Assembly (NCBI GenBank): GCA_964463135.1
Contig: CAYXBA010000003.1
Span: 228,012-260,011, forward strand
Length of the DNA stretch: 32,000 bases
Origin: an uncultured Nitrospiraceae bacterium
Lineage (GTDB): Bacteria > Nitrospirota > Thermodesulfovibrionia > Thermodesulfovibrionales > UBA6898
Reading direction: 5' to 3'
Shown here: one piece after another, positions 1 through 30,443 of the stretch
Position numbering within the stretch: the stretch's first letter is position 1
Layout: the number at the start of each line of letters is the position of its first letter
Made by a program: the position numbers and the translations under genes
The notes under the pieces: generated by a model
The model's input: the letters and a program-made list of their open reading frames with translations, nothing else
What the model was told of the DNA's origin: nothing
Database searches by the model: none

Positions 1-827
1 CGCTCCAGTCTGCCTTTTCAGCATTGAGAAGGGACATGGGCGATGTGGAAATCAGCGGTGTCGGCACAACAGGCAGCGGAAGGAAGCTGGCTGATTATAT
101 AGTAGGCGCTGACCAGGTGAAGAACGAGATCACTGCCCATGCGGTCTCTGCCATCCATCTTATCCCGAATGTGCGGACCATAGTCGAGATCGGGGGGCAG
201 GACTCGAAGCTGATCCTCATAAGGAACGGCGTTGTGGTCGATTTCTCGATGAACACGGTCTGCGCTGCAGGCACCGGCTCGTTCCTCGAGCATCAGGCAA
301 CGCGCCTGGGTATCGGGATCGAAGAGCTCGGCAATTATGCCCTCGCCGCATCATCCCCTGCCCGGATCGCAGGCAGGTGCACGGTCTTCGCTGAATCCGA
401 CATGATCCATAAGCAGCAGATGGGCCACAACCTCGAAGACATTGTTGCCGGTCTCTGCGATGCACTCGTCAGGAACTATCTGAACAACCTGTCCCGCGGC
501 AAAGAAATCAGCGACCCGGTCATATTCCAGGGCGGGGTTGCCGCAAACCCCGGCATCAAGGCATCCTTTGAGCGCGAACTCGGCAAGGAGTTCATCGTGC
601 CTCACTATTATCCGATCATGGGCGCCATCGGCGCTGCCCTTTTGAGCAGAAAGACAAAAAAGACACGGTTCAGGGGCTGGTCGTTGTCAGAAAAGCAGCT
701 TTCGACTTCGAGCTTCTACTGCTCTGACTGCCCGAACGCCTGCGGCGTGATGCAGATCAATGACTGCGATGCGGTGATAGCCCGCTGGGGTGACACCTGC
801 GGCAAATGGGGGCGGCTGGAAGAATGA
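1..827 (+). CDS. BcrA/BadF/HgdC-type ATPase ('activase' that delivers low-potential electrons to dehydratase/reductase partners); 5' end outside window
   Basis: The frame is open from nt 3 with no stop before the TTG at 24, so the N-terminus is cut by the window edge. Activase hallmarks: GVGTTGSGR, VEIGGQDSK, the two cluster-ligand contexts NTVCAAGTGSFLE and AGRCTVFAESD, and FQGGVAANPG. There is an extra Cys-rich tail FYCSDCPNACGV..DCD..GDTCGKW. The stop (825-827) overlaps the next start as ATGA. Confidence 0.8.
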   Translation, partial: LQSAFSALRRDMGDVEISGVGTTGSGRKLADYIVGADQVKNEITAHAVSAIHLIPNVRTIVEIGGQDSKLILIRNGVVVDFSMNTVCAAGTGSFLEHQATRLGIGIEELGNYALAASSPARIAGRCTVFAESDMIHKQQMGHNLEDIVAGLCDALVRNYLNNLSRGKEISDPVIFQGGVAANPGIKASFERELGKEFIVPHYYPIMGAIGAALLSRKTKKTRFRGWSLSEKQLSTSSFYCSDCPNACGVMQINDCDAVIARWGDTCGKWGRLEE

Positions 828-1438
828 AGAAACTTTTTCTTGCTTCACTCCTCCTCATTATCTTCACGTCAGTTTCCGCTGCCGACATCCTCGACGACCT
901 CAAGGCAAAGCAGGCAAAGATAAAGACCGTGAGCGCGAACTTTACGCAGGAGAAGAAGACCAAACTCCTCACCAAACCGATCAGGACCGACGGCCGCTTC
1001 CTGTACAAGCAGCCTGACAGGATCAGGTGGGAATATAAAGGGAACGTTAATCTGCAGGTCATCTTCAACGGCAAAGACATATGGCTCTACTATCCTGAAC
1101 TGAAAGAGGCAGATAAGTTATCCGGCCTCAGCCAGTATGGTTCGCTCATGCAGTTCGATGTGCTGAGCATGTCCCGCGACTATACGATCACCGCGCGGAA
1201 GGAAAAGACGATCATCTTCCTGAAGTTCTCGCCCAAGGCAAAAGGCCCGATCAGCCAGATAGAGATGGAAGTCCCTGAGGAATCATCCTTCCCGCGCATG
1301 GTGAAACTGTTCGACCAGAATAATGAACCGACCACGATCACCTTCAGGGATGTAAAGCTGAACCCTGATATGAAGGATGATAATTTTATCTTTGTGCCTG
1401 ACAAGGGTGTTACGGTAAGGGAAAGATCGCTCAGATGA
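824..1438 (+). CDS. LolA-like lipoprotein-carrier / lipid-chaperone fold protein, secreted
   Basis: The track ORF is 806-1438. I prefer ATG 824, which gives the signal peptide MKKLFLASLLLIIFTSVSA and an ATGA overlap with the upstream stop. It is a single ~200-aa domain with a LolA-like pattern (ANFTQEKKTKLLTKPIRTDGRFLYKQPDRIRWEY, DIWLYYPEL). Confidence 0.7.
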   Translation: MKKLFLASLLLIIFTSVSAADILDDLKAKQAKIKTVSANFTQEKKTKLLTKPIRTDGRFLYKQPDRIRWEYKGNVNLQVIFNGKDIWLYYPELKEADKLSGLSQYGSLMQFDVLSMSRDYTITARKEKTIIFLKFSPKAKGPISQIEMEVPEESSFPRMVKLFDQNNEPTTITFRDVKLNPDMKDDNFIFVPDKGVTVRERSLR

Positions 1439-2643
1439 GGACCCCGGTCATTACAGGCATAGGCGTCGTCTCCTCTATCGCTGTCGGAAGAGAGGCTTAT
1501 TGGGATGCCCTAAGCATCGGCAAGTGCGGCATCGGCGAAATAACGCTCTTCGACACCTCAGGCTTCAGGGGCAAGCTCGGGGCACAGGTCAGGGGCTTCG
1601 AACCGGATGACCACTTTGACCGCAAAGAGTCCCGCAGGCTTTCGCGCTGTAATATGCTCGGCACGGTCGCATTGCGGGAAGCACTTAAGGATTCTGGTCT
1701 TGATCTTCAGGCCATAGACAAGTCCCGGCTTGCGGTCGTGATCGGGAGCGGTTCAGGGGGACTGCTGCAGGGCGAAGAGTTCAGGAGAAGGATCTACCAG
1801 GGCAAGAAGCCAAAACCGACCCTTCTCACCTACTTTACCGCATCTTCGTTTACGGACTATATCGGCCTTCTGACCGGCGCCTGCGGGTTCCGTTCCACCA
1901 TCTCTACCGCCTGTTCATCGAGCAGCACAGCGATCGGCATCGCGGGCGAGATCATCAAAAAAGGCATCGCGGACTTTGTGATAACCGGCGGAAGCGAGTC
2001 CCTTGCAGAGACGACCTTTGCAGGTTTCAACTCTCTGCGCGCTGTTGACGAGGTGGCATGCAGACCCTTTGACAAGGAAAGGAAGGGCATATCCCTTGGT
2101 GAGGGCGCTGCCATCTATATTGTCGAAACAGCGGAGCATGCAGCGAAGAGAGGAAAGAAGGCATACGCAGAGATAGCAGGGTATGGCCTCTCCTGTGATG
2201 CCTATCATGTGACCGCGCCCGCGCCTGAAGGAACAGGCATTGCCCATGCGATCAGTCTGGCATTTAGGTCGTCAGGCATTGATGCATCAGAAATAGGTTA
2301 TATCAATGCCCACGGCACAGGCACACCGGCAAACGATCTGGCAGAGACCAATGCCATCAAGCTTGCGTTCCGGGAACACGCGAGCAGCATACCGGTCAGC
2401 TCGACAAAATCGATGATCGGACACTGCCTCGGTGCAGCAGGCGCAAAAGAAGCAGCTGCAGCTATCCTCCCTTTTGTCCGGGGCGTCATCCCGCCGACCG
2501 TGCATTACGAGAACCCTGACCCTGACTGCGACCTTGACTATGTTCCTCTGCCGCGCAGGAAGAACGATATCCAGCATGTGCTCTCCACGTCTGTGGCATT
2601 CGGCGGCAATAACACAGCCATGGTCCTGAAGAGGACTGCATGA
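1435..2643 (+). CDS. beta-ketoacyl synthase (FabF / KS-alpha type), catalytically competent
   Basis: 402 aa. Nucleophile context ISTACSSSSTAIG. His contexts YINAHGTGTPAND and STKSMIGHCLGAAG complete a Cys-His-His triad. C-terminal FGGNNTAMVL. ATGA overlaps on both sides. Confidence 0.9.
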   Translation: MRTPVITGIGVVSSIAVGREAYWDALSIGKCGIGEITLFDTSGFRGKLGAQVRGFEPDDHFDRKESRRLSRCNMLGTVALREALKDSGLDLQAIDKSRLAVVIGSGSGGLLQGEEFRRRIYQGKKPKPTLLTYFTASSFTDYIGLLTGACGFRSTISTACSSSSTAIGIAGEIIKKGIADFVITGGSESLAETTFAGFNSLRAVDEVACRPFDKERKGISLGEGAAIYIVETAEHAAKRGKKAYAEIAGYGLSCDAYHVTAPAPEGTGIAHAISLAFRSSGIDASEIGYINAHGTGTPANDLAETNAIKLAFREHASSIPVSSTKSMIGHCLGAAGAKEAAAAILPFVRGVIPPTVHYENPDPDCDLDYVPLPRRKNDIQHVLSTSVAFGGNNTAMVLKRTA

Positions 2644-3827
2644 TAGCGATCACAGGCATCGGCGTCATATGCCCTGCAGGTGTCGGCAGGGAAAACCTGA
2701 CGAGGTCCTTCCGTGAAACATGCGCCGGCATCGCAGAATCGGCCAGCTTAGGCCTTCCGTACGCGGGGATCTCGACGCTCGGTGAGGTCAGGGACTTTGC
2801 GGCAAAGGACCATATCCCTGTGATGAAGGCCCGCCGCATGTCGCGCTTCTCCCAGTTCAGCCTTGCCTCTGCGATCGAGGCCATGAAAGATGCAGGCTTT
2901 GCGGTCGATGACAGCAACCGCTGGCAGGTCGCTGTAGCGGTCGGTACAGGGGTTGCAAGCACCGGCAGCACTGACCAGTTCTTTGAAGGTCTTCTGAGGG
3001 AGGGGCCTGAGGGAACAAATCCGATCCTCTTTCCGGAGACCGTACAGAATATTGCGGCAGCCCATATCTCGATGCATTTCGGCACGCGGGGCCAGAACAT
3101 CACCTTCAGCCACAATGACATATCCTCTGAGCTGGCGCTTTTCTATGCCTGCGGACTCCTGAACGACGGGTTGGCCGATATGGCGATCGTATCAGGCGCT
3201 GATGAACTGAGCGTAGCAGAACTTGCCGGATATGCAGGCTTTCATGGGCTCTCAAACCATATGATGCCCTTTGACAGAAGAAGGAACGGCTTTGTGCTTG
3301 GCGAAGGCGCGGCAACGATCATCCTGGAGAGGAAAGAAGATGCAGTCAAAAGGGGGGCTGAAATGTACTGCACTATTGCAGCAGCAGAGATAACGTCATA
3401 TCCGACACCGATCACATCGTATGACCAGAGCCGTGAATCCATGAAGACCGCGATGTCTGCTGCACTGACAAAGGCGGGCCTCGAAGTTCCGGGATTTATT
3501 GCTGCATGCGCAAACTCTACATCTGGTCTCGATCATCTGGAGGCCGAATCGATCAGGGAACTCTTCGGCCAGGCAGCCCCGGTCACTGCCTTCAGGTCCT
3601 ATAATGGTTATTTCCCTGCAGACGGCATCCTGCGGATCGCATCAGCAGCACTCTGCCTCAATCAGGAAGCAGTTCCCGCAATAGCCGGACTGAAGGAGCC
3701 TATGGACGGATGCGGACTTGACCTGGTTATCGGCAAACCAAGAACAGTCCATGCTGACTCCGCGCTCATTAACTCCTTCTCAACAGGCGGAGCTGCGGCA
3801 TCAGTAGTGCTGAGGAAAGAAGCATGA
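2640..3827 (+). CDS. KS-like partner lacking the catalytic triad (chain-length-factor / KS-beta-like)
   Basis: 395 aa with KS architecture (starts ITGIGVICPAGVG, ends FSTGGAAASVVL). The nucleophile stretch reads NITFSHNDISSELALFYA, with no Cys. The two His positions read ACANSTSGLD and FRSYNGYFPADG, with no His. Confidence 0.8.
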   Translation: MIAITGIGVICPAGVGRENLTRSFRETCAGIAESASLGLPYAGISTLGEVRDFAAKDHIPVMKARRMSRFSQFSLASAIEAMKDAGFAVDDSNRWQVAVAVGTGVASTGSTDQFFEGLLREGPEGTNPILFPETVQNIAAAHISMHFGTRGQNITFSHNDISSELALFYACGLLNDGLADMAIVSGADELSVAELAGYAGFHGLSNHMMPFDRRRNGFVLGEGAATIILERKEDAVKRGAEMYCTIAAAEITSYPTPITSYDQSRESMKTAMSAALTKAGLEVPGFIAACANSTSGLDHLEAESIRELFGQAAPVTAFRSYNGYFPADGILRIASAALCLNQEAVPAIAGLKEPMDGCGLDLVIGKPRTVHADSALINSFSTGGAAASVVLRKEA

Positions 3828-5101
3828 GGCTGACCTTCGTCATACCCAAGTGGCCGAAAGGATCGCTCTGGTCGCATATGGTATTCCGATTTCCCTATCT
3901 CGGCATAACAACGCTTGCAGCGCTCACGCCCCCGGATGTTGAGATCGTGATCCAGGATGAGAACCTGCAGGAGATCTGCTTCGAAGGGTTCGACCTTGCA
4001 GCCATCTCGATCATGACGCCGCTTGCAGTGCGCGGCTATGAGATCGCTGACCGCTTCCGGCAGTCCGGCACAAAGGTGATCATGGGGGGCTTCCATGCGA
4101 CATGGCTCCCTGATGAGGCAGGCGAACATGCTGATGCTGTTATGATCGGCGAGGCTGACGCGGTCTGGCCGACGATCATTGCCGATGCGCTGGCCAATGA
4201 TCTGAAGGCACGCTATGCTCCGTCAGAACGCTCTGATTTCAGCGGACTTCCTCCCGCACGCAGAGAACTTTTGAGAAAAGACGGCTATCTATTCACCAAT
4301 ACGATCCAGACAACGCGGGGCTGCCCCTTTGACTGCGATTTCTGTTCAGTGACCGCTTTTTACGGCAATACGTACCGGTACCGGCCGCTGGAAGATATTG
4401 AAAAAGAACTCCAGTCCATTGCCGGAGGTTCCAACTTTATTTTCTTTGTTGACGACAATATCACCGGTAATCCCGGCCATGCCAAAAAGCTCTTTGAACT
4501 TTTGAAAGGATATAAGTTCAGGTGGCTCAGCCAGACGTCCATAACCTTTGCGGACAATCCGGAACTGCTGAAACTTGCTCAGGAGAGCGGCTGCCACGGC
4601 ATGTTCATCGGGTTCGAGACCCTTATGCAGGAGGGGCTTGATATCCTGAACAAGAAGACCAACAAGTCGGCCAAATATGCAGACTCGATAAAGCGCATCC
4701 ATGATCACGGCATCGGCATACAGGGGTCATTTATTTTCGGATATGACTGGGACACCCCGGCATCCTTTGAGGCTGTCGTTGATTTTACGGAAAGGAACCG
4801 GCTCGACAGCACGCTCTTCACCATACTCACGCCCTACCCCGGAACAAGGGTCTTCAGCAGAATGATGGAGCAGGGAAGGATCCTTACCACGGACTGGTCA
4901 AAATACGACATGGCCCATGTTGTATACAAACCGATAAATATGACTGCTGAGGAACTGCAGGAAGGCTACCTCTGGGCAAACCGGCAGTTCTATTCCTGGG
5001 GCTCCATGTTCAAGAGACTGCCTGCATGGCGCAGGAGTCTCCTGGTATTCGGCCCGATGAACTGGGGTTTTAGAAAGGCCTGGCAGGAGTTCACTTACTG
5101 A
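3824..5101 (+). CDS. B12-binding-domain radical SAM enzyme (paralog 1)
   Basis: 425 aa. The N-terminal Rossmann-like cobalamin-type domain (LGITTLAALTP..VEIVIQDEN..KVIMGGFHAT) is followed by a radical SAM core with TTRGCPFDCDFCSV (CxxxCxxC) and FFVDDNI. Confidence 0.85.
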   Translation: MRLTFVIPKWPKGSLWSHMVFRFPYLGITTLAALTPPDVEIVIQDENLQEICFEGFDLAAISIMTPLAVRGYEIADRFRQSGTKVIMGGFHATWLPDEAGEHADAVMIGEADAVWPTIIADALANDLKARYAPSERSDFSGLPPARRELLRKDGYLFTNTIQTTRGCPFDCDFCSVTAFYGNTYRYRPLEDIEKELQSIAGGSNFIFFVDDNITGNPGHAKKLFELLKGYKFRWLSQTSITFADNPELLKLAQESGCHGMFIGFETLMQEGLDILNKKTNKSAKYADSIKRIHDHGIGIQGSFIFGYDWDTPASFEAVVDFTERNRLDSTLFTILTPYPGTRVFSRMMEQGRILTTDWSKYDMAHVVYKPINMTAEELQEGYLWANRQFYSWGSMFKRLPAWRRSLLVFGPMNWGFRKAWQEFTY

Positions 5102-5514
5102 TGCTCAATAAGTATAAAGCGACCGTGACGCGCTTCCTGAAGAAAGGGCTCGCGCCATCAGAGATCGCCTTTGCGATCGCACTCGGGAATTTTGTCGGCA
5201 TCCTCCCGCTTGTGGGCCTTCATACGCTCGTGGCAATCGGCCTTGCGCATCTCCTGAGGCTGAACATCATGATCGTATTTCTCGGCACCCAGATATCGAA
5301 CCCGATATCGTTTCCCTTTATTCTTTTCATCAGCGCCCAGATCGGCAGCCTTTTGCTGAGCGGCAGTCTGCTGAATATTCAGTTCACCACTGACCTCGCG
5401 ATCCTGAAGACCTATATCATGCCTACGATCATCGGCGGTGTTATTCTCGGTCTCGCGGTCAGTTCCGTCTCATACGTTCTCACGCTCAAGATCGCCAGGC
5501 GCTTCAGAACGTGA
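5101..5514 (+). CDS. DUF2062-family small membrane protein
   Basis: 137 aa with about 3-4 TM helices. The N-terminal GLAPSEIAFAIALGNFVGILPLVGLHTLVAIGLAHLLRLN..ISNP pattern is typical of DUF2062. TGATG overlap with the upstream gene and GTGA overlap with the downstream gene. Confidence 0.6.
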   Translation: MLNKYKATVTRFLKKGLAPSEIAFAIALGNFVGILPLVGLHTLVAIGLAHLLRLNIMIVFLGTQISNPISFPFILFISAQIGSLLLSGSLLNIQFTTDLAILKTYIMPTIIGGVILGLAVSSVSYVLTLKIARRFRT

Positions 5515-6851
5515 AGGTCCTCCTCGCGTACCCCTTCAGGGAAGACACTTACCGCAAGGTCGGCTTCATCCTCCCGCCCATGGGCATTGCCTATATCGCA
5601 TCCGTACTCAGGAACAACGGGCATGAGGTGAAGATCGTCGATTTCAATGTCACGGATGAAAAGATCGATTACTCCGGGTTTGATATTGTCGGCATCTCTG
5701 CTGACACGAGCAGATACAAGAGCGGTCTTCTGCTTGCGCAGGAGGCAAAGCAGGCAGGCTGCACTGTGGTCATGGGCGGCCCGCATGTCAGCTATAAGGA
5801 TGAAGATGCGCTCAGGACCGGGTTCTGTGACTTTGTTGTGCGCGAGGAAGGCGAACAGACGATGCTCGAACTTGCAGATACCCTCGGCACTGAGCAGGCC
5901 TATGCTGTCAGAGGCATCAGCTATCTGAAGGACGGCGAAATCCAGAGGACTCCCGGCAGGGGGTTCATCGACAATATCGACGACCTCATTCCTGCCCGCG
6001 ACCTGCTGGATATGAAGTCCTACCGCCACCTCGAGATGGGCAAGAGGAAAATGACATCTATTCTTACCAGCAGGGGATGCCCGTTCGGCTGCTCCTTCTG
6101 CTGCTCCACCGAGTTCAGCGGAAGGAAGTGGAGGTCCCGCAGCCCCCTGAAGATCGTGGACGAGATAGAAGACATTGTCACAAACCATGACTTCAACGGC
6201 ATAGCCTTCCTTGACGACAACTTCACCCTCGACCCCAAGCGGGTCATCGCGATCTGCGACGAAATCGTGCGCAGGAATATCGACATCTACTGGTGGTGCT
6301 TTTCACGCGCTGACACGCTCCTGAAGAACGAGGCGATGGTCGCAAAGATGGCTGCAGCAGGCTGCAAGTACATCTTCATCGGCTTTGAGTCGCGCCACCA
6401 GTCAACGCTCGACCAATACAACAAGAGCATCACCGACAGCATGGCAAAGGATGTGACCGAACTCCTGAGAAGATACAATATCTCTGTTCATGCGAGCTTC
6501 ATCATCGGCAACATCGACGAGACACGGGCAATGGTGATGGAAACCGTGCGGTACGCAAAGCAGATCGATCCCCAGGCAGTGCAGTTCACGATCCTTACTC
6601 CCTATCCCGGCACAAGGCTTTTTGACGAGGTGAAGGACCGGATCATTACTGATGACTGGGACCTGTATGACTGTCTGCACTCTGTGGTGCGCACTGACCA
6701 TCTCGGGCAGAAGGAGCTTGAGGCCCTGCTTAAAAAGGCCTATCTGACGTTCTATCTCTCGCCGAGCAAGGTCGCGGCCGGCCTCCTGAGCAGCTTCCGC
6801 GGCAAGGGCATCAAGCTCAGCTCCATACTCAGGATATTCAGGGGCCTCTGA
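5511..6851 (+). CDS. B12-binding-domain radical SAM enzyme (paralog 2)
   Basis: 446 aa with a GTG start. MKVLLAYPF..MGIAYIASVLRNNGHEVKIVD is the B12-type domain. Cluster motif TSRGCPFGCSFCCS, then FLDDNF. Confidence 0.85.
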   Translation: MKVLLAYPFREDTYRKVGFILPPMGIAYIASVLRNNGHEVKIVDFNVTDEKIDYSGFDIVGISADTSRYKSGLLLAQEAKQAGCTVVMGGPHVSYKDEDALRTGFCDFVVREEGEQTMLELADTLGTEQAYAVRGISYLKDGEIQRTPGRGFIDNIDDLIPARDLLDMKSYRHLEMGKRKMTSILTSRGCPFGCSFCCSTEFSGRKWRSRSPLKIVDEIEDIVTNHDFNGIAFLDDNFTLDPKRVIAICDEIVRRNIDIYWWCFSRADTLLKNEAMVAKMAAAGCKYIFIGFESRHQSTLDQYNKSITDSMAKDVTELLRRYNISVHASFIIGNIDETRAMVMETVRYAKQIDPQAVQFTILTPYPGTRLFDEVKDRIITDDWDLYDCLHSVVRTDHLGQKELEALLKKAYLTFYLSPSKVAAGLLSSFRGKGIKLSSILRIFRGL

Positions 6852-8260
6852 TGCGAGTCCTGCTCGTCTCCCCGAACCGTGAGCATCTGCCTGATCCGGT
6901 CTTTCCTCTCGGCCTCTCGTACATTGCATCCGCTCTCAGAAAGCATGATCACGCTGTCAGCATGATCGATCTCTGCTTTTCTGAGGATATGGACAAGGAC
7001 ATTGAAAAGGCTGTCCGCACTTCCCGGCCGGATGTGATCGGCATGTCGCTCAGAAATATCGATGACGTCTGCTACCCGAAGCAGCACTCCTATCTGCAGG
7101 AATATAAGACCACGATCGGATCTCTCAGAAGGTACTCTCAGGCCCCGATCGTTTTAGGCGGTTCCGGCTTTACCATTATGCCTAATGCGTTCATGCAGGA
7201 ACTCGGCGCTGATTTCGGGATCACAGGCGAAGGTGAAAAGGCCTTTCCTGAATTGCTGAAGAAGATAACCTCCCTCGCTCCCTCCCTGGTAAGGAAGGAA
7301 GCTGAAATACGTGGCGCGGCTGCCGGGCATGTCCTCCCTCCTTTCCAAGGCGGGATTGAGGGGGGTAATGATCGCATCATTTCATCCCGCTCGCGGATCA
7401 AGGATCTGGACTGCGTTGTCCCTGACCGGGAACTCTTTGACAGCAGTTCCTATTACCGTCTCGGCGGCATGCTGAATATCCAGACAAAAAGGGGCTGTCC
7501 CTTCAAATGCATCTACTGCACGTATCCCAAAGTGGAGGGCAGGACCGTCAGGATGCGCAGCCCGCAGTCAGTTGCTGATGAAATGGAAGCGATCATAGCA
7601 AATACAGGCGCACGCCACTTCTTCATCGTTGACAGCATCTTCAACTATCCGGTCAGCCATGCAAAGGCGGTCTGCGATGAGATCATCAAACGCGGCCTCG
7701 ATATCCAGTGGTCGTGCTACGCAAATCCTGCTCACATGACAGAGGACCTTGCAGACGCCATGGTCAGGGCCGGCTGCACCGGTGTTGAGTTCGGCACCGA
7801 CTCTCTTGTTGACGAACTGCTCAGGAACATGGGCAAGAGCTTCACCTTCAGCAAGGTAAGGAAGGCATCGCTCATATGTAAGAATGCAGGCCTGAAGTTC
7901 TGCCATTTCATCTTTGCAGGCTCACCGGGAGATACTGATGAGACGATCAAAATGACCCTTGCGCGGCTTGAAGAGATCGCGCCGGATGCTGCGGTGATCA
8001 TGGCAGGGATCAGAATATTCCCCGGCACAGTCCTGGCAGAGCGTGCAAGGCAGGACCTCGGCATCTCGACCATAGGCCTTAAACCGGTCTTCTATCTTTC
8101 AGAAAAACTGACGGATTACGATGCCGTGGCCGAGGCGGTCTCGAAGAAAAAGAACTGGATCATGCCGGGGTATGAGATCAATTTTTATCCGCGCCTCCAG
8201 AAGAAGCTCAGGGAGCACGGCATCAAGGGTTCGCTCTGGGAAGGACTGGGGAAACGGTGA
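6851..8260 (+). CDS. B12-binding-domain radical SAM enzyme (paralog 3), with a 13-codon insertion
   Basis: 469 aa. MRVLLVSPN..LGLSYIASALRKHDHAVSMIDL is the B12-type domain. Cluster motif TKRGCPFKCIYCTYP, then FIVDSIF. It carries the extra segment HVLPPFQGGIEGG relative to paralog 2 (see repeat feature 7333-7365). Confidence 0.85.
   Translation: MRVLLVSPNREHLPDPVFPLGLSYIASALRKHDHAVSMIDLCFSEDMDKDIEKAVRTSRPDVIGMSLRNIDDVCYPKQHSYLQEYKTTIGSLRRYSQAPIVLGGSGFTIMPNAFMQELGADFGITGEGEKAFPELLKKITSLAPSLVRKEAEIRGAAAGHVLPPFQGGIEGGNDRIISSRSRIKDLDCVVPDRELFDSSSYYRLGGMLNIQTKRGCPFKCIYCTYPKVEGRTVRMRSPQSVADEMEAIIANTGARHFFIVDSIFNYPVSHAKAVCDEIIKRGLDIQWSCYANPAHMTEDLADAMVRAGCTGVEFGTDSLVDELLRNMGKSFTFSKVRKASLICKNAGLKFCHFIFAGSPGDTDETIKMTLARLEEIAPDAAVIMAGIRIFPGTVLAERARQDLGISTIGLKPVFYLSEKLTDYDAVAEAVSKKKNWIMPGYEINFYPRLQKKLREHGIKGSLWEGLGKR
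7333..7365 (+). repeat. C-rich/G-rich hairpin-forming element embedded in frame in the radical SAM gene
   Basis: CCTCCCTC (7333-7340) pairs with GAGGGGGG (7358-7365): 8 pairs including one T:G. The loop is 17 nt. The element lies entirely inside the 39 nt (7328-7366) encoding HVLPPFQGGIEGG. That segment has no counterpart in my by-eye alignment with paralog 2. Confidence 0.4.
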
Positions 8261-8310
8261 AACGATGGAGCTATGTGGTGGAGTGAAGCGGAGCCCGCAC
8301 GATTGATTTG

Positions 8311-8526
8311 CTAGGTTACCGCAATTTTTTCTTCTAAATATCCTGTTCCTACTGCAGCAAGGGCGTCCTGCCGGTTAAATTCAAGCGCTTCTTTCAGGGT
8401 AAGTCGAAGACTTTCAACAAGCTCATCATGGGTTTGCTCCTGACAGTTCACGCCTGGAAGTTCCTCTATCCACCCAATCCACCAGTCACCAGACTGCTTT
8501 ATAACTGCTGTATATTCGGCATTCAT
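8311..8526 (-). CDS. hicB: HicB-like antitoxin-family small protein (no HicA partner seen)
   Basis: 71 aa. YTAVIKQSGDWWIGWIEELPGVNCQEQTHDELVESLRLTLKEALEF fits the short HicB/UPF0150 pattern. The flanks (8261-8310 and 8527-8609) are too short and closed to encode a toxin. Confidence 0.55.
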   Translation of the reverse strand: MNAEYTAVIKQSGDWWIGWIEELPGVNCQEQTHDELVESLRLTLKEALEFNRQDALAAVGTGYLEEKIAVT

Positions 8527-8609
8527 ACTCTACCTCGTTATGCCCAGATTATAGCGCAACGACAGGCACTATTAGTATTGTTTTATAAAACTCGATGCCT
8601 TTGTTGTGC

Positions 8610-9170
8610 CTAGCATTTTCCTCTTAACATGAGAAGTATGCCAACAAGAATGATCAATAAGAGACCACCGAAGATCAGCTCTGCAATATGTTTGGATACC
8701 TTTTTCTTGCCATCGAGCAACTCGAGGGCGCTACTCTCAACTGTGATATTGGGATTAGTTCTAATAATTTCTCTGATAAAATCTTCGGTATTGGTGAAGA
8801 ACACCGGGCTCAAAACTAATAAGTTGTCAGTCCCCTGCCAGAAGGCACTTCTGACGATCGAGGGATCAAAACCTATTCTGTAAATATAGTTGCCAGAATT
8901 AGAAACAGCGTCTACGGTCAGGATTTTTGCCAGCGGCAGTTCCCGGCGCATGCCCAGAAACATAAGACCTTTCAATTTAAGTCTATCTTCATGCAGTTCA
9001 ATTGAGGAGTCCAACTTCCAGTACAAAACTAGACATAGAATGAGGCACGGCCAAAGCCAGTTAATATTCGTAATTATGTCTTTTTTAATCCCGATTGCGC
9101 CTATAAACAGTGGTAACAGTGCGAACAGAAATCGCGGCCAAAATTTATGTTTTGCCTCTTTAATTTTCAT
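8610..9170 (-). CDS. hypothetical membrane protein (two N-terminal TM helices, soluble middle, C-terminal TM)
   Basis: 186-aa ORF in a low-GC stretch. TM helices FLFALLPLFIGAIGI, WLWPCLILCLVLYW and LIFGGLLLIILVGILLML. I recognise no family. Confidence 0.5.
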   Translation of the reverse strand: MKIKEAKHKFWPRFLFALLPLFIGAIGIKKDIITNINWLWPCLILCLVLYWKLDSSIELHEDRLKLKGLMFLGMRRELPLAKILTVDAVSNSGNYIYRIGFDPSIVRSAFWQGTDNLLVLSPVFFTNTEDFIREIIRTNPNITVESSALELLDGKKKVSKHIAELIFGGLLLIILVGILLMLRGKC

Positions 9171-9257
9171 TTATTTCTTCGTCTAGCAACTTATTAAATA
9201 GCCCGAGAGGCGAACGCCAAATTAGCTTGATTGCAGTGTTATATGGCACTGTCCTCA

Positions 9258-9914
9258 TCACTGCCCACCATTACTCGTGACTCCCACAACTAGAAATATT
9301 GAGTAAACGGCATTGAGAAGCAAGCAAAGGAGTAGTGCTGCTTTCTTTGGATAACCAGCATAACCCTTAAATGCTACCCAACAGCTAACAGCCGGCAGTA
9401 TGAGAAATATTAAATATCCGAGTGGAGCGCCCTGCTCTGACAAAGCAATCGCGTTTCGGAATGATGAGGTCAACCCTAACATTGCGCCGATTGCTATCCC
9501 TATTGGCGTCAGCAACATGCTGGCCAGATACCAAAACGTTGAATTACCACCATCAAGGGTGATTTCGTTTTTTAAATCGGCAAGGCCACTTTCTTTTTGT
9601 CGAGTCTTATTGATGCGCCCAACAGCGTCGCTGGCAAACCGAAAATAGTTTTTGCCTATGCTCTTAACCTCATCAGTAAGCTGATCTATGCTTTCGCGTG
9701 AAGGAGGCTCGCCAACTTTCACCCCTTCGTTAAATAATTGTTTCGCCTCCTGCCGCTTCTCCTTAAGTTGATCTTTAAATTCATGCCTTTTTTGGTCAAG
9801 TTCCTTTTCGATCGGCTTGTCAGTGTCAAAATTCTTACGCACTAAGGGTGAAATAAATAGGAATATCACGGCGATGACGACGAGCGGTGCGAAAATAATG
9901 AGAAGCAAATTCAT
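9258..9914 (-). CDS. hypothetical membrane protein (N-terminal TM, charged helix, C-terminal multi-TM)
   Basis: 218-aa ORF in a low-GC stretch. N-terminal TM LLLIIFAPLVVIAVIFLFI, a Lys/Glu-rich helix (EKELDQKRHEFKDQLKEKRQEAKQ), then 3-4 TM helices. I recognise no family. Confidence 0.5.
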   Translation of the reverse strand: MNLLLIIFAPLVVIAVIFLFISPLVRKNFDTDKPIEKELDQKRHEFKDQLKEKRQEAKQLFNEGVKVGEPPSRESIDQLTDEVKSIGKNYFRFASDAVGRINKTRQKESGLADLKNEITLDGGNSTFWYLASMLLTPIGIAIGAMLGLTSSFRNAIALSEQGAPLGYLIFLILPAVSCWVAFKGYAGYPKKAALLLCLLLNAVYSIFLVVGVTSNGGQ

Positions 9915-10030
9915 GTTATTAATTTATCTTCCTGTCTATATGACACATATTTTTTCATATTGCATGCGTTTTTTTGATAAGTATAGGGGCAAATGGGGGC
10001 ATCGTCAAGAAAAATTAACCCACCCCTCCG

Positions 10031-10046
10031 CCCCTCCAGGGAGGGG
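10031..10046. repeat. perfect palindrome CCCCTCC-AG-GGAGGGG in the intergenic region downstream of the cytochrome gene
   Basis: Read directly: 7-nt arms at 10031-10037 and 10040-10046. It lies 59 nt downstream of the minus-strand stop at 10105. On the minus strand a T-run follows only about 16 nt later, so it is not a canonical intrinsic terminator. Confidence 0.35.
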
Positions 10047-10104
10047 ACTATAAGAAAGGGCTATCTGAATTAGCGAAAAGAATTAATTGCAGGAGATTAT
10101 GCTT

Positions 10105-10344
10105 TTACTTCTTATGGCAGTTGATACAGAGGGGGTCTGAGATCATCTGGGCTGCGCGCTCGTCAGGGGCTTTCTTTACCTGACCCATGCCATGGCATTT
10201 GAAGCAGTCCTTATATCCGAGTGCCTCATGCATCTTCCGCATCTTCGGATTCTTGCTGTGGCATTCGTTGCAGGCCGCATCCGGCAGAGATGCCGTGCAA
10301 AGAAGCAATGAGGCGGTCGTGAACAACGCGATCAGAATCTTCAT
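10105..10344 (-). CDS. small periplasmic triheme cytochrome c (c7-like)
   Basis: 79 aa. Signal peptide MKILIALFTTASLLLCTASL. Three CxxCH motifs (CNECH, CFKCH, CINCH). It ends CHKK, as c7-type cytochromes do. Confidence 0.8.
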   Translation of the reverse strand: MKILIALFTTASLLLCTASLPDAACNECHSKNPKMRKMHEALGYKDCFKCHGMGQVKKAPDERAAQMISDPLCINCHKK

Positions 10345-10388
10345 GCTTTTATTATGAGAATTCTATAAGTAAGCGTATATGATCAAGG

Positions 10389-10817
10389 TCATACGTCCCG
10401 GCAGGAGGAAAGGCGCCTGATGATCTCTTCATTTGCCGCCGGAAATTCGTATGAGCAGAGGTCATCAGGCAGGACCCATTTCACCTCATCATGCACATGC
10501 GGCGTGATATCTCCCGAGATATGCTTCACGCGGTATGCAAGCAGCTCGACAGAAAGATGCTCGTAGTCGTAGCAGCTTGAACAGATAAAGTCTTCAACCC
10601 CGGTCTCGATGCCCAGCTCCTCATGAAGCTCTCTTTTCAGCGCCTCTTCCGCTGTCTCGCCCGGATCGATCTTTCCTCCCGGAAACTCCCATTTGCCGGC
10701 GAGCTTGTCCCCCTGCCGCCGCTTCGCGATCAGCACCTTACCGTCCTTCTCGATCACCGCCGCAACAACCTTTACCAGTGTTTGCTTTTTCATTTTCATC
10801 GCTTTATTGTAAATCAT
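10389..10817 (-). CDS. Nudix hydrolase, MutT-like
   Basis: The Nudix box is intact: GGKIDPGETAEEALKRELHEELGI. Preceded by KWEFPGG. The true start may be an internal Met (MKMKKQTLV, codon at 10797-10799). Confidence 0.85.
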   Translation of the reverse strand: MIYNKAMKMKKQTLVKVVAAVIEKDGKVLIAKRRQGDKLAGKWEFPGGKIDPGETAEEALKRELHEELGIETGVEDFICSSCYDYEHLSVELLAYRVKHISGDITPHVHDEVKWVLPDDLCSYEFPAANEEIIRRLSSCRDV

Positions 10818-17152: not shown

Positions 17153-17721
17153 TTTTTCCTGAGTATCTCATTAATGATAAGAAGCCCTCTCCTAGCACCC
17201 GATGCTATGGCCTGCGCAGATCCGGCTGTGCCGACAGGTGCTGTTATATCGGTCCCGACCCTGATCGGGTCAGTTGCCTTCTTTCCCTCGAACTGCTTGA
17301 GAAAAGCCTGCTGACTTAACTTCGGCGACTCATTGTTCTCAAAGATATGTATTTTCGTGAGCTCGCCTTTACCGTTCACAACAAGGCCGATCTCGATCTT
17401 TCCGTTTTCACCAAGAGCGTCTACGAACAGGATCACCGCTGCCTTGTGTGGAGGATTGTCCGCATTGGTCTTGACGAGGGCAAAATAGATGGAAGGTTTC
17501 AAATCCTCTTCACGTAGCCCGCTTCCAAGAGACTTTTCTATCGCAACTCTCTGCTGATCAGTCACATAGAGATTCTTCTGCTCAAAGGAGACTGCCTGAG
17601 AGTAAAGGGCTTTCAATTTTTCGCCCGGCCAGACAAGGTCGTGGGCATATGATAATGAAGCATATAGACAGAGCATGATTGCTGCTGAACCTATTGTTGT
17701 TATTACTCTATCCCGTCTCAC
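17149..17721 (-). CDS. exported FMN_bind-like domain protein (NosR N-terminal-domain-like)
   Basis: 190 aa with a GTG start and a signal anchor. The C-terminal DITAPVGTAGSAQAIASGARRGL resembles the FMN-attachment stretch of NosR/NqrC/RnfG-type FMN_bind domains. ATGA overlap with the polyferredoxin gene. Confidence 0.45.
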   Translation of the reverse strand: MRRDRVITTIGSAAIMLCLYASLSYAHDLVWPGEKLKALYSQAVSFEQKNLYVTDQQRVAIEKSLGSGLREEDLKPSIYFALVKTNADNPPHKAAVILFVDALGENGKIEIGLVVNGKGELTKIHIFENNESPKLSQQAFLKQFEGKKATDPIRVGTDITAPVGTAGSAQAIASGARRGLLIINEILRKK

Positions 17722-17883
17722 TGAATTATCCTTTCGATTTCCGTTCCTTAGATAAATTTACTACAAAAGTTTGAAGAATCTTTGAACAAAAAGTGAAGAT
17801 ACCGTGAAACCTTCGCCCGATTAAATCTCGATAAAGTTCCCGTCGAGCGACGGTTCTTCTGCATCTTCAGTCTCCTAGTCGCC

Positions 17884-20779: not shown

Positions 20780-21454
20780 ATGACAACCGCGGTTGAGAAA
20801 TCTATGATCCCGCTTATTGACAGGACATTGCCCGCAAAGACGGAGACAGCGACCTTCGGGCTTGGCTGATTCTGGGGGCCTGACTCCCGGTTCGGGAGTA
20901 TCTCAGGAGTGATCAGGACCCGCGTCGGTTACAGCGGCGGGACAAAGCCAAACCCGACCTACAAGAGTCTCGGCGATCATACCGAGACGATAGAGATCGA
21001 TTTTGACCCGACCAAGATCACGTATGAACAGCTGCTGGAGATCTTCTGGAGCAGCCACGATCCGGCAGGATGGTCATGGGCAAAGCAGTACAGGAATGTC
21101 ATCTTTTATCACAACAAGATGCAGAGACAGTCTGCAGAAAGAACACGCGACCGCATCGCTGCGCAGACCGGCAAAAAGGTCCGCACCGATATCGAACCTG
21201 CAGCAACATTCTACCTGGCCGAGGACTATCACCAGAAGTTCAGGCTTCAGCAGGACCCTCTGCTTGCTGCAGAATATGATGCCATCTATCCGGACATAAA
21301 GAGCTTTGTCGATTCTACGGCAGTCAGTCGGGTCAACGGATACCTCGGCGGATACGGCAGTTCCGCCGGACTGAACAGGGAGATCGATGGTCTCGGCCTT
21401 TCAGACGCAGCAAAAAAACACCTGCAAGATATTGTGGCCGGTTCAGGCCGGTGA
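20780..21454 (+). CDS. msrA: peptide-methionine (S)-S-oxide reductase MsrA with TGA (20867-20869) at the catalytic Cys position (candidate selenoprotein)
   Basis: The track splits it into 20579-20869 and 20909-21454, which share one frame. The joined reading is ...TATFGLG-[TGA]-FWGPDSRFGSISGVIRTRVGYSGGTKPNPTYKSLGDHTETIEIDFDP..., i.e. the MsrA GCFWG signature with TGA in place of Cys. I prefer the start at ATG 20780 because of AAGGAG 9 nt upstream. The alternative ATG 20579 would add a TM-like N-terminus (RWTLFTLILAAVSILGLAGAWLY). The start is unresolved. Confidence 0.8.
20883..20899 (+). promoter_or_regulatory. candidate bacterial SECIS hairpin for TGA 20867-20869
   Basis: ACUCCCG-GUU-CGGGAGU is a perfect 7-bp stem starting 13 nt after the UGA. 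The apical region contains G and U residues. Confidence 0.6.
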
Positions 21455-26551: not shown

Positions 26552-26577
26552 AACCCTGCTTTTCGCAGCATTACACC

Positions 26578-27054: not shown

Positions 27055-27169
27055 AAGCCTGCCCTCCCAATATTGTTATTCCCATTATTCAAGATGCGCC
27101 TGCAGCCCGAACAGAATATCCTGCACTATATTTTCATCATATCATAATCCGGTAATGTCTTCTCCGTCC

Positions 27170-27502: not shown

Positions 27503-27584
27503 GCTCTTCTGCGGGCCACGTGATGCAAGGGGGAGGGGATTTCCTGGAGGGGAAATGGTCCCTTGCATCCGCATGGCCCGCACA

Positions 27585-27610: not shown

Positions 27611-27618
27611 TCCTGAGC

Positions 27619-30440: not shown

Positions 30441-30443
30441 CGG

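What the first reader, a model, noticed from the sequence alone, without database searches (positions are those of the whole stretch)
1..8260. Eight translationally coupled genes combine a KS/dead-KS pair with three cobalamin-type radical SAM enzymes, a BcrA-type activase, LolA and DUF2062
Seen in sequence: every junction overlaps (ATGA at 824-827, 1435-1438, 2640-2643 and 3824-3827; TGATG at 5099-5103 and 6849-6853; GTGA at 5511-5514), so the eight products are probably made stoichiometrically. One KS has the Cys-His-His triad. Its partner has lost all three residues, as in type II PKS and aryl-polyene KS/CLF heterodimers. Three paralogous B12-domain radical SAM enzymes each carry CxxxCxxC (GCPFDCDFC, GCPFGCSFC, GCPFKCIYC). 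No ACP, ketoreductase, dehydratase or acyltransferase is in the window; they may lie upstream. Established knowledge: B12-radical SAM enzymes methylate or form C-C bonds at unactivated carbons. HgdC/BcrA-type ATPases drive very low-potential one-electron chemistry. LolA-like and DUF2062 genes accompany outer-membrane lipid export clusters such as aryl polyene loci. A combination of KS with several radical SAM enzymes has been proposed, but not proven, for ladderane lipid synthesis. Inference: this operon makes an acyl or polyene chain that is heavily modified (multiply methylated, cyclised or cross-linked) and then exported. I do not recognise this exact gene set as a characterised pathway.
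Basis: partly seen in the sequence, partly recalled or inferred. Interest (0 to 1): 0.8.

Follow-up and report, generated by a model that had tools for sequence, protein, structure and literature searches.

The report
Orphan ladderane-type lipid gene cluster, Nitrospirota
This is a real eight-gene operon from an uncultured Nitrospirota bacterium, a variant of the "ladderane-type" lipid gene clusters already known from genome comparisons in many anaerobes, and what it makes is still unknown.

Summary
Positions 3-8260 carry eight + strand genes with overlapping junctions. In order they are an HgdC/BcrAD-type activase (N-terminus cut by the window), LolA-like, an intact ketosynthase (KS: C160/H293/H330), a triad-less KS (D160/C290/Y324), radical SAM (rSAM) A, DUF2062, rSAM B and rSAM C.

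The gene set is not unrecognised. rSAM C passes NCBIfam TIGR04072 ("lipid biosynthesis B12-binding/radical SAM protein", model name rSAM_ladder_B12). KS plus dead-KS plus B12-rSAM clusters outside anammox bacteria have been described since Rattray 2009 and are called "ladderane" by antiSMASH. No product is known.

In 24 related loci with enough flank, 21 keep at least one B12-rSAM next to the KS pair. The rSAM complement varies (C; A; B+C; A+B+C; five).

ACP, KR and acyltransferase are not upstream in relatives. Upstream lie two DUF2229/HGD-D proteins, the activase's partners. This domain set matches PlsA/Ger ester-to-ether reductases, but orthology is unproven.

Distant Desulfobacterota versions carry ACP, KR, a hotdog protein, GT2, an MMPL exporter, an LpxL-like acyltransferase and a deacetylase. 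That is an aryl-polyene/flexirubin-like chassis.

It is neither a true ladderane cluster nor an ordinary aryl-polyene, hopanoid or BChl cluster. Verdict: new variant of a known orphan kind, of moderate interest.

The parts
3..827 (+). C-terminal 274 aa of an HgdC/BcrAD-type ATP-dependent activase. The N-terminal ~40 aa lie outside the window. It carries a conserved C-terminal Cys-rich tail (CxxCxxxC...C).
   Evidence: Pfam BcrAD_BadFG 158.7 bits. NCBIfam TIGR00241 186 bits against a cutoff of 125. 96% identical to the 314-aa L003 protein. Alignment shows the conserved Cys residues. Nearest solved structures, found with the L003 orthologue, are MbdQ, HadI and HgdC.
824..1438 (+). LolA-like periplasmic lipid/lipoprotein carrier with an N-terminal signal-like hydrophobic segment.
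   Evidence: Pfam LolA 89.4 bits. NCBIfam lolA 100.9 bits (cutoff 112) and flexirubin LolA2 84.8 bits (cutoff 125), both below cutoff. It heads the KS pair in the Nitrospirota and Syntrophaceae versions.
1435..2643 (+). Active FabF-like ketosynthase (C160, H293, K325, H330).
   Evidence: Pfam ketoacyl-synt N+C. NCBIfam NF005589 415 bits against a cutoff of 387, but below the fabF equivalog cutoff (421.8 against 493.75). Triad residues checked.
2640..3827 (+). Triad-less KS homologue (D160, C290, R319, Y324); presumed chain-length-factor-like partner of the KS.
   Evidence: Pfam. Alignment of 121 family members, none with any triad residue; the Cys site is D in 62 and E in 42. 27% identical to the neighbouring KS.
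3824..5101 (+). Radical SAM enzyme A (CxxxCxxC at GCPFDCDFC) with a degenerate B12-like N-terminal domain. It has no named family and is absent from the close relative L003.
   Evidence: Pfam Radical_SAM 71.4 bits; B12-binding 25.8 bits, below the cutoff of 32.1. Best NCBIfam hit is HpnR at 92 bits against a cutoff of 650. Orthologues are 56-80% identical in L005, L007, L009, L012 and L014.
5101..5514 (+). DUF2062 small hydrophobic membrane protein.
   Evidence: Pfam DUF2062 89.8 bits. Found only in the Nitrospirota version of the cluster. A DUF2062 gene is listed in a flexirubin-type cluster.
5511..6851 (+). B12-binding radical SAM enzyme B, related to BchE/HpnJ/HpnR but not a member of any of them.
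   Evidence: Pfam B12-binding 79.4 bits and Radical_SAM 74.5 bits. NCBIfam BchE 238 bits against 481, HpnJ 197 against 578, HpnR 183 against 650.
6851..8260 (+). B12-binding radical SAM enzyme C, a member of TIGR04072 (rSAM_ladder_B12). This is the rSAM most often kept next to the KS pair.
   Evidence: TIGR04072 368 bits against a cutoff of 360. Orthologues score 358-393 bits. Nearest solved structure is TsrM 6wte, E 2.8e-48; the TsrM Arg69 equivalent is kept and the Glu273 equivalent is Ile. NCBI names relatives 'lipid biosynthesis B12-binding/radical SAM protein'.

Best explanation
The operon is a Nitrospirota (Thermodesulfovibrionales-like) variant of the orphan 'ladderane-type' lipid gene clusters. 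These have a type II FAS/PKS-like core: an active KS, a catalytically dead KS, and at least one cobalamin-type radical SAM enzyme of family TIGR04072.

Most likely mechanism (all steps inferred):
1. The KS and its dead partner form a KS/chain-length-factor-like heterodimer. This heterodimer primes and elongates a dedicated acyl chain on an ACP encoded elsewhere. Housekeeping FabG, FabZ and FabI supply the reductive steps.
2. The three rSAM enzymes act as independent, optional tailoring steps at unactivated carbons. rSAM C is probably a C-methyltransferase. rSAM B is possibly a methylase or a cyclase/C-C-forming enzyme.
3. The activase drives, at the cost of ATP, a DUF2229/HGD-D heterodimer encoded just upstream. 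That heterodimer performs low-potential ketyl-radical chemistry on an acyl (thio)ester. The best guess is ester-to-ether reduction as in PlsA/Ger; the alternative is a dehydration.
4. LolA-like and DUF2062 move the lipid into the cell envelope.

The product is not a ladderane.
For: Shown:
- Domain identities.
- Triad kept in one KS and lost in the other.
- rSAM C meets TIGR04072.
- The family spans Nitrospirota, Syntrophaceae, Desulfobacterales and others, and 21 of 24 informative KS->dead-KS loci carry a B12-rSAM (17 type C, 9 type A, 5 type B).
- The rSAM complement differs between near relatives. L003 lacks A, L014 has only A, and L034 has five. This fits modular tailoring.
- In six of seven Nitrospirota-type relatives, two DUF2229/HGD-D proteins with three invariant Cys each precede the activase.
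- The same module lies beside the Desulfobacterales version in L021. An activase alone, cut by the locus edge and 6 kb from the core, is seen in L049 and L079.
- Distant versions add ACP, KR, a FabD-like AT, a hotdog protein, GT2, MMPL, an LpxL-like acyltransferase and a polysaccharide deacetylase. These genes are also listed in a flexirubin-type cluster.

From the literature:
- An anammox KS/dead-KS pair forms a functional KS/CLF-like heterodimer that decarboxylates malonyl-ACP (bioRxiv 10.64898/2026.05.19.726425).
- PF01869 + PF09989 + PF06050 is the domain set of Ger, which converts sn-1 esters to ethers (PMC13159169).
- The nearest relatives of rSAM C with known function are the methyltransferases TsrM and BzaD.
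Against: - No product, substrate or activity is known for any member of this cluster family, so every chemical step is an analogy.
- No ACP, KR or DH lies within 10 kb in the Nitrospirota versions. The chain could therefore be an ordinary fatty acid rather than a dedicated one.
- The DUF2229/HGD-D pair is not shown to be a PlsA/Ger orthologue. The best 150 representative homologues are all short, split or two-domain forms (212-765 aa), and none has Ger-like length. The same three-gene module also stands alone next to spoVA genes in Firmicutes. It may be an independent enzyme that is only a neighbour here. L005 lacks it entirely, and in L009 and L012 three unrelated genes separate it from the cluster.
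- rSAM A's B12 domain is below threshold.
- The window's own upstream sequence could not be retrieved.
Confidence: 0.6

Rival explanations
1. Bulk membrane-lipid remodelling rather than a specialised metabolite. In this reading the rSAM enzymes add mid-chain methyl branches, or join or cyclise ordinary fatty acyl chains. The DUF2229/HGD-D plus activase module converts glycerol esters to ethers. The KS pair only biases chain length.
For: The Nitrospirota versions encode no ACP, KR, DH, thioesterase or acyltransferase of their own. The domain set of the upstream module equals that of Ger/PlsA, which act on membrane glycerolipids (PMC13159169). The family is restricted to anaerobes, where O2-independent radical chemistry is needed. 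From my own knowledge, not tested here: mid-chain methyl fatty acids are typical of Desulfobacter, anammox bacteria and Nitrospira, a spread that resembles that of this family.
Against: The strict pairing with a dedicated KS/dead-KS is hard to explain this way. So is the presence in distant versions of a dedicated ACP, KR, hotdog protein, MMPL exporter, LolA, GT2 and LpxL-like acyltransferase, which looks like a separate exported lipid as in aryl polyenes. No lipid data exist for these organisms.
Confidence: 0.2
2. An ordinary aryl-polyene/flexirubin cluster.
For: A KS plus chain-length-factor-like pair, LolA-like and DUF2062 are present. Distant family members also carry MMPL, an LpxL-like acyltransferase, GT2, a hotdog thioesterase-like protein and a polysaccharide deacetylase. 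The LolA-like protein scores 84.8 bits against the flexirubin LolA2 model.
Against: No aryl-activating enzyme (ammonia lyase or AMP ligase), no dehydratases and no ACPs or KR are found in the window or in the Nitrospirota relatives. B12-rSAM genes are the conserved partner here and, to my knowledge, are not part of aryl-polyene clusters. The LolA2_flexi score is below its cutoff of 125.
Confidence: 0.05
3. A genuine ladderane (concatenated cyclobutane) lipid pathway outside the anammox bacteria.
For: It shares a KS/dead-KS pair and a TIGR04072 B12-rSAM with the anammox candidate cluster (PMC10139942). There are extra rSAM enzymes that could form C-C bonds.
Against: The features that define the anammox Cluster I are absent: amxACP, amxFabZ and the phytoene-dehydrogenase-like gene. 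The gene order is KS->dead-KS, whereas the anammox cluster has the dead KS first. The Cys site holds Asp, against Val or Thr in anammox. The closest homologues are named Nitrospirae/Nitrospirota and Thermodesulfovibrionales. Desulfotalea psychrophila, which has a syntenic cluster, contained no ladderanes (PMC2649909).
Confidence: 0.03
4. A hopanoid-tailoring (HpnJ/HpnR/HpnP) or bacteriochlorophyll (BchE) cluster.
For: rSAM B's best named hits are BchE, HpnJ and HpnR.
Against: All scores are far below the family cutoffs: 238 against 481, 197 against 578 and 183 against 650. No squalene-hopene cyclase, other hpn genes or bch genes are in the window or the relatives.
Confidence: 0.01

Closest known systems
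'Ladderane-type' FAS-like clusters of non-anammox bacteria (Rattray et al. 2009, Desulfotalea/Geobacter/Pelobacter; antiSMASH class 'ladderane'; NCBIfam TIGR04072 neighbourhoods)
   Same: An active KS next to a triad-less KS, followed by a TIGR04072 B12-binding rSAM. The family occurs in anaerobes, and its product is unknown. Dead KS proteins with Asp or Glu at the Cys site were already tabulated in 2009.
   Different: The Nitrospirota version has lost (or relocated) ACP, KR, the hotdog protein, GT2, MMPL and the deacetylase. It has gained two further rSAM subfamilies (A, B) and DUF2062. It is fused into one overlapping operon with an activase that follows a DUF2229/HGD-D pair.
Anammox 'Cluster I' (KustE3603-3608: amxACP, amxFabZ, amxFabFmut, amxFabF2, PDH-like, B12-rSAM)
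   Same: A KS/chain-length-factor-like pair plus a cobalamin-type rSAM. The anammox pair is shown to be a heterodimer that decarboxylates malonyl-ACP (bioRxiv 10.64898/2026.05.19.726425).
   Different: There is no amxACP, amxFabZ or PDH-like gene. The KS/dead-KS order is reversed. The Cys site holds Asp instead of Val/Thr. The phylum is different. This cluster has three rSAMs against one, and adds LolA, DUF2062 and the activase.
Aryl-polyene / flexirubin clusters
   Same: A KS/CLF pair, LolA-like and DUF2062. In distant family members the shared genes also include MMPL, an LpxL-like acyltransferase, GT2, a hotdog protein, a polysaccharide deacetylase, KR and ACP. This suggests the same logic for anchoring and export to the envelope.
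   Different: There is no aryl starter machinery and there are no dehydratases. The B12-rSAM enzymes are the conserved tailoring partner.
PlsA/PlsR plasmalogen synthase and Ger glycerol ester reductase
   Same: The module to which the window's activase belongs has the same Pfam domain set: BcrAD_BadFG + DUF2229 + HGD-D (PMC13159169).
   Different: Here the module is split into three proteins with a single activase domain. Ger and PlsA are fused BBD... proteins with two activase domains. The nearest 150 representative homologues are all short forms. No direct comparison with a validated Ger or PlsA sequence was possible.
TsrM and BzaD (cobalamin-dependent rSAM-family methyltransferases)
   Same: These are the nearest characterised relatives of rSAM C (TsrM 6wte E 2.8e-48; BzaD 203 bits). 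The Arg under the corrin ring (TsrM Arg69) is conserved.
   Different: The TsrM Glu273 equivalent is Ile. According to what I recall of the TsrM structure, Glu273 blocks the unique iron. rSAM C may therefore cleave SAM reductively, unlike TsrM. Its scores are far below both family cutoffs.

Membership tests
Ladderane-type KS/dead-KS + TIGR04072 rSAM cluster family | Adjacent active KS and triad-less KS homologue | tested here: met
   KS has C160/H293/H330; its partner has D160/C290/Y324; the genes overlap by 4 nt.
Ladderane-type KS/dead-KS + TIGR04072 rSAM cluster family | B12-binding rSAM that meets NCBIfam TIGR04072 in the same cluster | tested here: met
   rSAM C scores 368.0 bits against a cutoff of 360, a narrow pass. 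Orthologues in other loci score 358-393 bits.
Ladderane-type KS/dead-KS + TIGR04072 rSAM cluster family | rSAM co-conserved with the KS pair across genomes | tested here: met
   21 of 24 KS->dead-KS loci with at least 3 kb downstream have a B12-rSAM; 17 of them have type C.
Anammox Cluster I (true ladderane candidate) | Dedicated amxACP and amxFabZ in the cluster | tested here: not met
   No PP-binding or FabZ/FabA hit among the ORFs of the window that were scanned, nor within 10 kb in L003 or L005.
Anammox Cluster I (true ladderane candidate) | Phytoene-dehydrogenase-like gene in the cluster | tested here: not met
   No such Pfam hit in the window or in L003/L005.
Anammox Cluster I (true ladderane candidate) | Dead KS encoded upstream of the active KS, with Val/Thr at the Cys site | tested here: not met
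   The order here is KS then dead KS, with Asp at the Cys site.
Anammox Cluster I (true ladderane candidate) | Ladderane lipids produced | not testable with these tools
   Needs lipid analysis of the organism.
Aryl-polyene / flexirubin cluster | Aryl starter activation (ammonia lyase / AMP ligase), two dehydratases, KR, ACPs | tested here: not met
   None found in the window or in the Nitrospirota relatives.
Aryl-polyene / flexirubin cluster | LolA-like carrier of the flexirubin LolA2 type | tested here: inconclusive
   NF053544 scores 84.8 bits against a cutoff of 125; housekeeping lolA scores 100.9 against 112.
Class B (cobalamin-dependent) radical SAM enzymes | CxxxCxxC cluster motif and radical SAM core | tested here: met
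   Met by all three.
Class B (cobalamin-dependent) radical SAM enzymes | N-terminal B12-binding domain above the Pfam cutoff | tested here: inconclusive
   rSAM B 79.4 and rSAM C 72.9 bits pass the 32.1 cutoff; rSAM A at 25.8 bits does not. Actual cobalamin binding is not testable here.
HgdC/BcrAD activase with HgdAB/BcrBC-like partner | BcrAD_BadFG ATPase with the two conserved cluster-bridging Cys | tested here: met
   TIGR00241 scores 186 bits against 125. The Cys in NTVCAAGTG and GRCTVFAESD are invariant in the alignment. Their assignment as [4Fe-4S] ligands comes from my knowledge of HgdC.
HgdC/BcrAD activase with HgdAB/BcrBC-like partner | Partner Fe-S dehydratase/reductase subunits encoded alongside | tested here: inconclusive
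   This region is outside the window. In relatives L003, L009, L011, L012 and L014, two DUF2229/HGD-D proteins with three invariant Cys each directly precede the activase. The window's own upstream DNA could not be fetched.
PlsA/PlsR/Ger ester-to-(vinyl)ether reductases | Domain set PF01869 + PF09989 + PF06050 | tested here: met
   on the L003 orthologues; the architecture is defined in PMC13159169.
PlsA/PlsR/Ger ester-to-(vinyl)ether reductases | Fused BBD core with two activase domains, conserved in all confirmed ether producers | tested here: not met
   The module is split into three genes with one activase domain. The best 150 representative homologues are 212-765 aa.
PlsA/PlsR/Ger ester-to-(vinyl)ether reductases | Sequence orthology to a validated Ger/PlsA; ether lipid formation | not testable with these tools
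Activity needs an experiment.
BchE / HpnJ / HpnR | Score above the equivalog cutoff | tested here: not met
   rSAM B scores 238 against 481, 197 against 578 and 183 against 650.

The most novel reading that the evidence does not exclude
The DUF2229/HGD-D plus activase module is a split PlsA/Ger-type ester-to-ether reductase recruited into the cluster. The pathway would then make ether-linked alkyl lipids whose chains are built by a KS/chain-length-factor pair and methylated or cyclised by up to three radical SAM enzymes. That would be a non-anammox counterpart of the ether-linked ladderane lipids. It would also offer a route to the chemistry of the TIGR04072 enzymes, which cannot be studied in anammox bacteria.
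Probability: 0.15. Interest if true: 0.8.

Novelty: new variant of a known kind. Interest (0 to 1): 0.5.

Why it matters
[quoted passage not shown] The anammox system has no genetics, and its rSAM has not been expressed (PMC10139942).

The family documented here shows that the KS/dead-KS + TIGR04072 core is widespread in anaerobes, and that its rSAM complement is modular. If any member's product were solved, it would show what this rSAM family does to acyl chains, and that would bear directly on the open ladderane question.

The recurring neighbourhood with a PlsA/Ger-like module, seen in two phyla, is a new lead connecting these clusters to ether-lipid formation.

For this particular window the value is limited. 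The organism is an uncultured MAG, the cluster lacks its own ACP and KR, and nothing here reveals the product.

Tried and rejected
- I tried to extend the window upstream by exact-protein look-up. Only 3-kb and 7-kb Logan contigs came back, not the 264-kb NCBI contig. Upstream content is therefore inferred from relatives.
- Promoter and terminator scans of 1-10700 were at chance level. An Rfam scan of the window found nothing.
- My first triad check used the wrong His columns (the AYH motif). One search corrects it.
- I looked for anammox homologues by name among the best 120 rSAM C relatives and found none. Closeness to the anammox rSAM therefore rests only on the shared NCBIfam model.
- PDB entry 9s5h (chains B and C) may be the anammox heterodimer. 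The window's dead KS scores 159 bits to chain C, no better than its 172 bits to E. coli FabF. The preprint gives no PDB codes, so I do not rely on this.
- NCBIfam gives no named family for the DUF2229/HGD-D proteins, only weak hits to the double-cubane reductase and HadC at the C-terminus. PDB hits are weak too (DCCP 6eno/7yyl, E about 1e-4).
- The supplement of the Ger paper is not held, so no validated Ger sequence could be compared.
- Hopanoid, BChl, ordinary aryl-polyene and true-ladderane readings were considered and rejected; see the rivals.
- Structure prediction was not run. For rSAM A no permitted alignment was available, and for rSAM C it would only have repeated the TsrM sequence match.

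Full report
**What is in the sequence.** Positions 3-8260 of the + strand carry eight genes with no intergenic space.

Pfam and NCBIfam identify the products as follows:
- an HgdC/BcrAD-type activase (BcrAD_BadFG 158.7 bits; TIGR00241 186 bits against a cutoff of 125);
- a LolA-like protein;
- a FabF-like KS;
- a second KS homologue;
- a radical SAM protein with a sub-threshold B12 domain (rSAM A);
- a DUF2062 membrane protein;
- a B12-binding rSAM related to, but far below the cutoffs of, BchE, HpnJ and HpnR (rSAM B);
- a B12-binding rSAM that passes NCBIfam TIGR04072, "lipid biosynthesis B12-binding/radical SAM protein", model name rSAM_ladder_B12 (368 bits against 360; rSAM C).

The first gene is cut by the window edge. 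The fragment aligns to residues about 41-314 of a 314-aa orthologue and is 96% identical to it.

The KS keeps C160, H293, K325 and H330. Its partner has D160, C290, R319 and Y324. None of the 120 retrieved homologues of the partner keeps any triad residue, and Asp or Glu sits at the Cys site in 104 of 121 sequences (correcting).

The three rSAMs all have CxxxCxxC but are only 26-30% identical to one another. They are three subfamilies, not recent paralogues.

**Organism and boundaries.** The closest homologues of the dead KS and of rSAM C come from MAGs labelled Nitrospirae/Nitrospirota and Thermodesulfovibrionales. The cluster ends at 8260. Downstream is a lower-GC stretch with two ORFs that have no Pfam match. 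After that come unrelated genes (HhH-GPD glycosylase, GGDEF, DUF815, a P-type ATPase and others) that are syntenic with the relative L003. No ACP, KR, DH or acyltransferase was found among the ORFs scanned across the 32-kb window.

**What lies upstream.** The source contig could not be fetched, so I used relatives. In L003 (GCA_016214855.1; dead KS 81% identical, activase 96% identical) the order is DUF2229/HGD-D protein (317 aa), DUF2229/HGD-D protein (363 aa), activase, LolA, KS, dead KS, DUF2062, rSAM B, rSAM C. The same two proteins precede the activase in L009, L011, L012 and L014. Each keeps three invariant cysteines.

The predicted ACP, KR and DH are not. These partner proteins are only weakly similar to solved HgdB/HadC and to the double-cubane reductase, and only at their C-termini. 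Their strong match is to DUF2229 (139 bits).

**Comparison across genomes.** A scan of one genome per species with a profile of the dead KS returned 80 loci. I mapped these by blastp with the window's proteins and the accessory proteins of two relatives. Thirty-eight loci have the KS->dead-KS pair. Of the 24 with at least 3 kb downstream, 21 carry at least one B12-rSAM (17 type C, 9 type A, 5 type B).

Three architectures recur:
- Nitrospirota type: as in the window.
- Syntrophaceae type: LpxL-like acyltransferase, polysaccharide deacetylase, LolA, KS, dead KS, rSAM A, rSAM C, FabD-like AT, KR, ACP and a hotdog protein, with MMPL and GT2 nearby.
- Desulfobacterales type, the commonest: MMPL, deacetylase, KR, ACP, hotdog protein, GT2, KS, dead KS, rSAM C.

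The rSAM complement is strikingly variable even among near relatives. L003 lacks A. L014 has only A. L005 has A, B and C but no activase module. L034 has five rSAMs. This pattern suggests independent tailoring steps rather than one obligatory cascade.

The full eight-gene set with the upstream pair was found only in the window's lineage (L009, L012). There, three unrelated genes (MarR, pirin, LigB) separate the activase from LolA.

**The activase module.** The domain set BcrAD_BadFG + DUF2229 + HGD-D is the one described for Ger, the glycerol ester reductase of Thermotoga maritima and Desulfatibacillum alkenivorans. Ger converts sn-1 esters into alkyl ethers and derives from the plasmalogen synthase PlsA (PMC13159169; PMC9702350).

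In two phyla the module sits beside the lipid cluster. In L021 a 742-aa fusion of both DUF2229/HGD-D proteins and the activase abut the KR-ACP-hotdog-GT2-KS-dead-KS-rSAM C genes. In L049 and L079 an activase gene lies at the locus edge, about 6 kb from the core. That makes ester-to-ether chemistry the most attractive specific guess.

It is only a guess, for three reasons:
- The confirmed enzymes are fused and have two activase domains.
- An exhaustive search with an orthologue found 2452 representative relatives, and the best 150 are all 212-765 aa.
- The same three-gene module stands alone beside spoVA genes in Firmicutes.

The activases of this module share a C-terminal CxxCxxxC...C tail that the 243-276-aa solved activases (HgdC, HadI, MbdQ, DCCP reductase) are too short to contain.

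**rSAM C.** Its nearest solved structure is the cobalamin-dependent tryptophan methyltransferase TsrM (6wte, E 2.8e-48). After TIGR04072, its best NCBIfam hits are BzaD and TsrM, both methyltransferases. In the alignment the Arg that lies under the corrin in TsrM (Arg69) is conserved, and the Glu273 equivalent is Ile. From my recollection of the TsrM structure, that Glu occupies the unique iron and prevents reductive SAM cleavage. rSAM C may therefore be a radical-generating methylase. This is inference.

**What is already known.**
- Rattray et al. (2009, PMC2649909) described clusters of FAS genes, divergent and dead KS paralogues and radical SAM genes in Kuenenia. They found syntenic clusters in Desulfotalea psychrophila, Geobacter and Pelobacter, and no ladderanes in Desulfotalea.
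- antiSMASH 3 added a "ladderane" class citing that paper (PMC4489286).
- Such clusters are routinely reported, and expressed, in Desulfobacterota, Myxococcota, Omnitrophota and other phyla, with unknown function (PMC9902471).
- A 2026 preprint shows that the anammox KS/dead-KS pair is a KS/chain-length-factor-like heterodimer that decarboxylates malonyl-ACP (10.64898/2026.05.19.726425).

The window is thus a member of a recognised orphan class. It is not the anammox Cluster I. There is no amxACP, amxFabZ or PDH-like gene, the KS order is reversed, and Asp replaces the Val/Thr found at the Cys site in anammox.

The accessory genes of the wider family are polysaccharide deacetylase, LolA, DUF2062, lipid A-type acyltransferase, KS, CLF, ACP and FabG. 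These are the same as those listed for a flexirubin-type cluster. The family therefore looks like an aryl-polyene/flexirubin chassis in which the aryl starter and dehydratases are replaced by cobalamin rSAM tailoring.

**Most likely mechanism (inferred throughout).**
1. The KS/dead-KS heterodimer primes and extends an acyl chain on an ACP supplied in trans.
2. rSAM C methylates it, and rSAM A and B add further modifications at unactivated carbons.
3. The ATP-driven DUF2229/HGD-D enzyme performs a ketyl-radical step on an ester or thioester, either ether formation or dehydration.
4. LolA-like and DUF2062 deliver the lipid to the envelope.

I give about 0.85 to membership of the cluster family and about 0.35 to the mechanistic outline. 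The main rival (0.2) is remodelling of bulk membrane lipids.

**Verdict.** This is a new variant of a known orphan kind, of moderate interest.

Noticed in passing
window 20780-21454 (+), TGA at 20867-20869: The methionine sulfoxide reductase A gene has an in-frame TGA exactly at the catalytic Cys of the GCFWG motif (it reads G-TGA-FWG). It also matches Pfam 'Selenoprotein MsrA helical domain', so it is probably a selenocysteine MsrA. The ORF finder lists only the part after the TGA (20909-21454). A hairpin downstream of the TGA folds at -23.7 kcal/mol but is no better than shuffles (z -0.39).
   Followed up: partly
window 22299-31924 (- strand): A corrinoid-dependent methyl-transfer gene set. 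It comprises a URO-D-family methyltransferase (31130-31924), a corrinoid protein with B12-binding and B12-binding_2 domains (30444-31130), an Fe-S protein, and the RACo reductive activator of corrinoid enzymes (27619-29610). Further genes are an HdrD-like CCG/Fer4 protein, a PLP enzyme and a TPP enzyme. This shows that the organism uses cobalamin, which fits the B12-type rSAM enzymes.
   Followed up: no
window 8261-10600: A lower-GC stretch (42-47% against about 55%) directly after the cluster holds two - strand ORFs (8610-9170, 9258-9914) with no Pfam match. In the relative L003 the same position holds a BrnT toxin gene, small ORFs and a NUDIX gene. This looks like a variable islet between the cluster and the conserved HhH-GPD/GGDEF/DUF815 genes.
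   Followed up: partly
window 640-827; L003 7010-7954; L089 8074-9051: The activases of the three-gene DUF2229/HGD-D module carry a conserved ~55-aa C-terminal extension with four invariant Cys (SF-x-C-xx-C-x-N-x-C ... RW-x-D-x-C-GKW). The solved activases HgdC, HadI, MbdQ and the DCCP reductase (243-276 aa) are too short to contain it. It may bind an extra metal or Fe-S site.
   Followed up: partly
L089 6001-9051 and L091 8001-11073: The same three-gene module (DUF2229/HGD-D, DUF2229, activase; 328/370/325 aa) stands alone in Thermincola-like Firmicutes, directly after spoVA and GerA spore genes, with no lipid cluster nearby. The family is large: 2452 representative clusters at E <= 1e-3.
   Followed up: partly
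L006 11251-11529: In a Desulfobacterales genome the KS/dead-KS pair is followed by only a 51-residue stretch matching the start of rSAM C (59% identity). It is probably a remnant of a lost or truncated rSAM gene.
   Followed up: no
window 6851-8260, about residues 140-180: rSAM C of the window is 469 aa, whereas several relatives 77-80% identical to it are 439 aa. The extra ~30 residues appear to lie in the linker between the B12 and radical SAM domains, where the TsrM alignment is poor.
   Followed up: no
window 15101-20130 (- strand): A heavy-metal P-type ATPase with HMBD domains (17884-20130) lies next to a 683-aa membrane Fe-S protein (Fer4_5, 15101-17152) and two ORFs without Pfam matches. 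These are unrelated to the finding.
   Followed up: no
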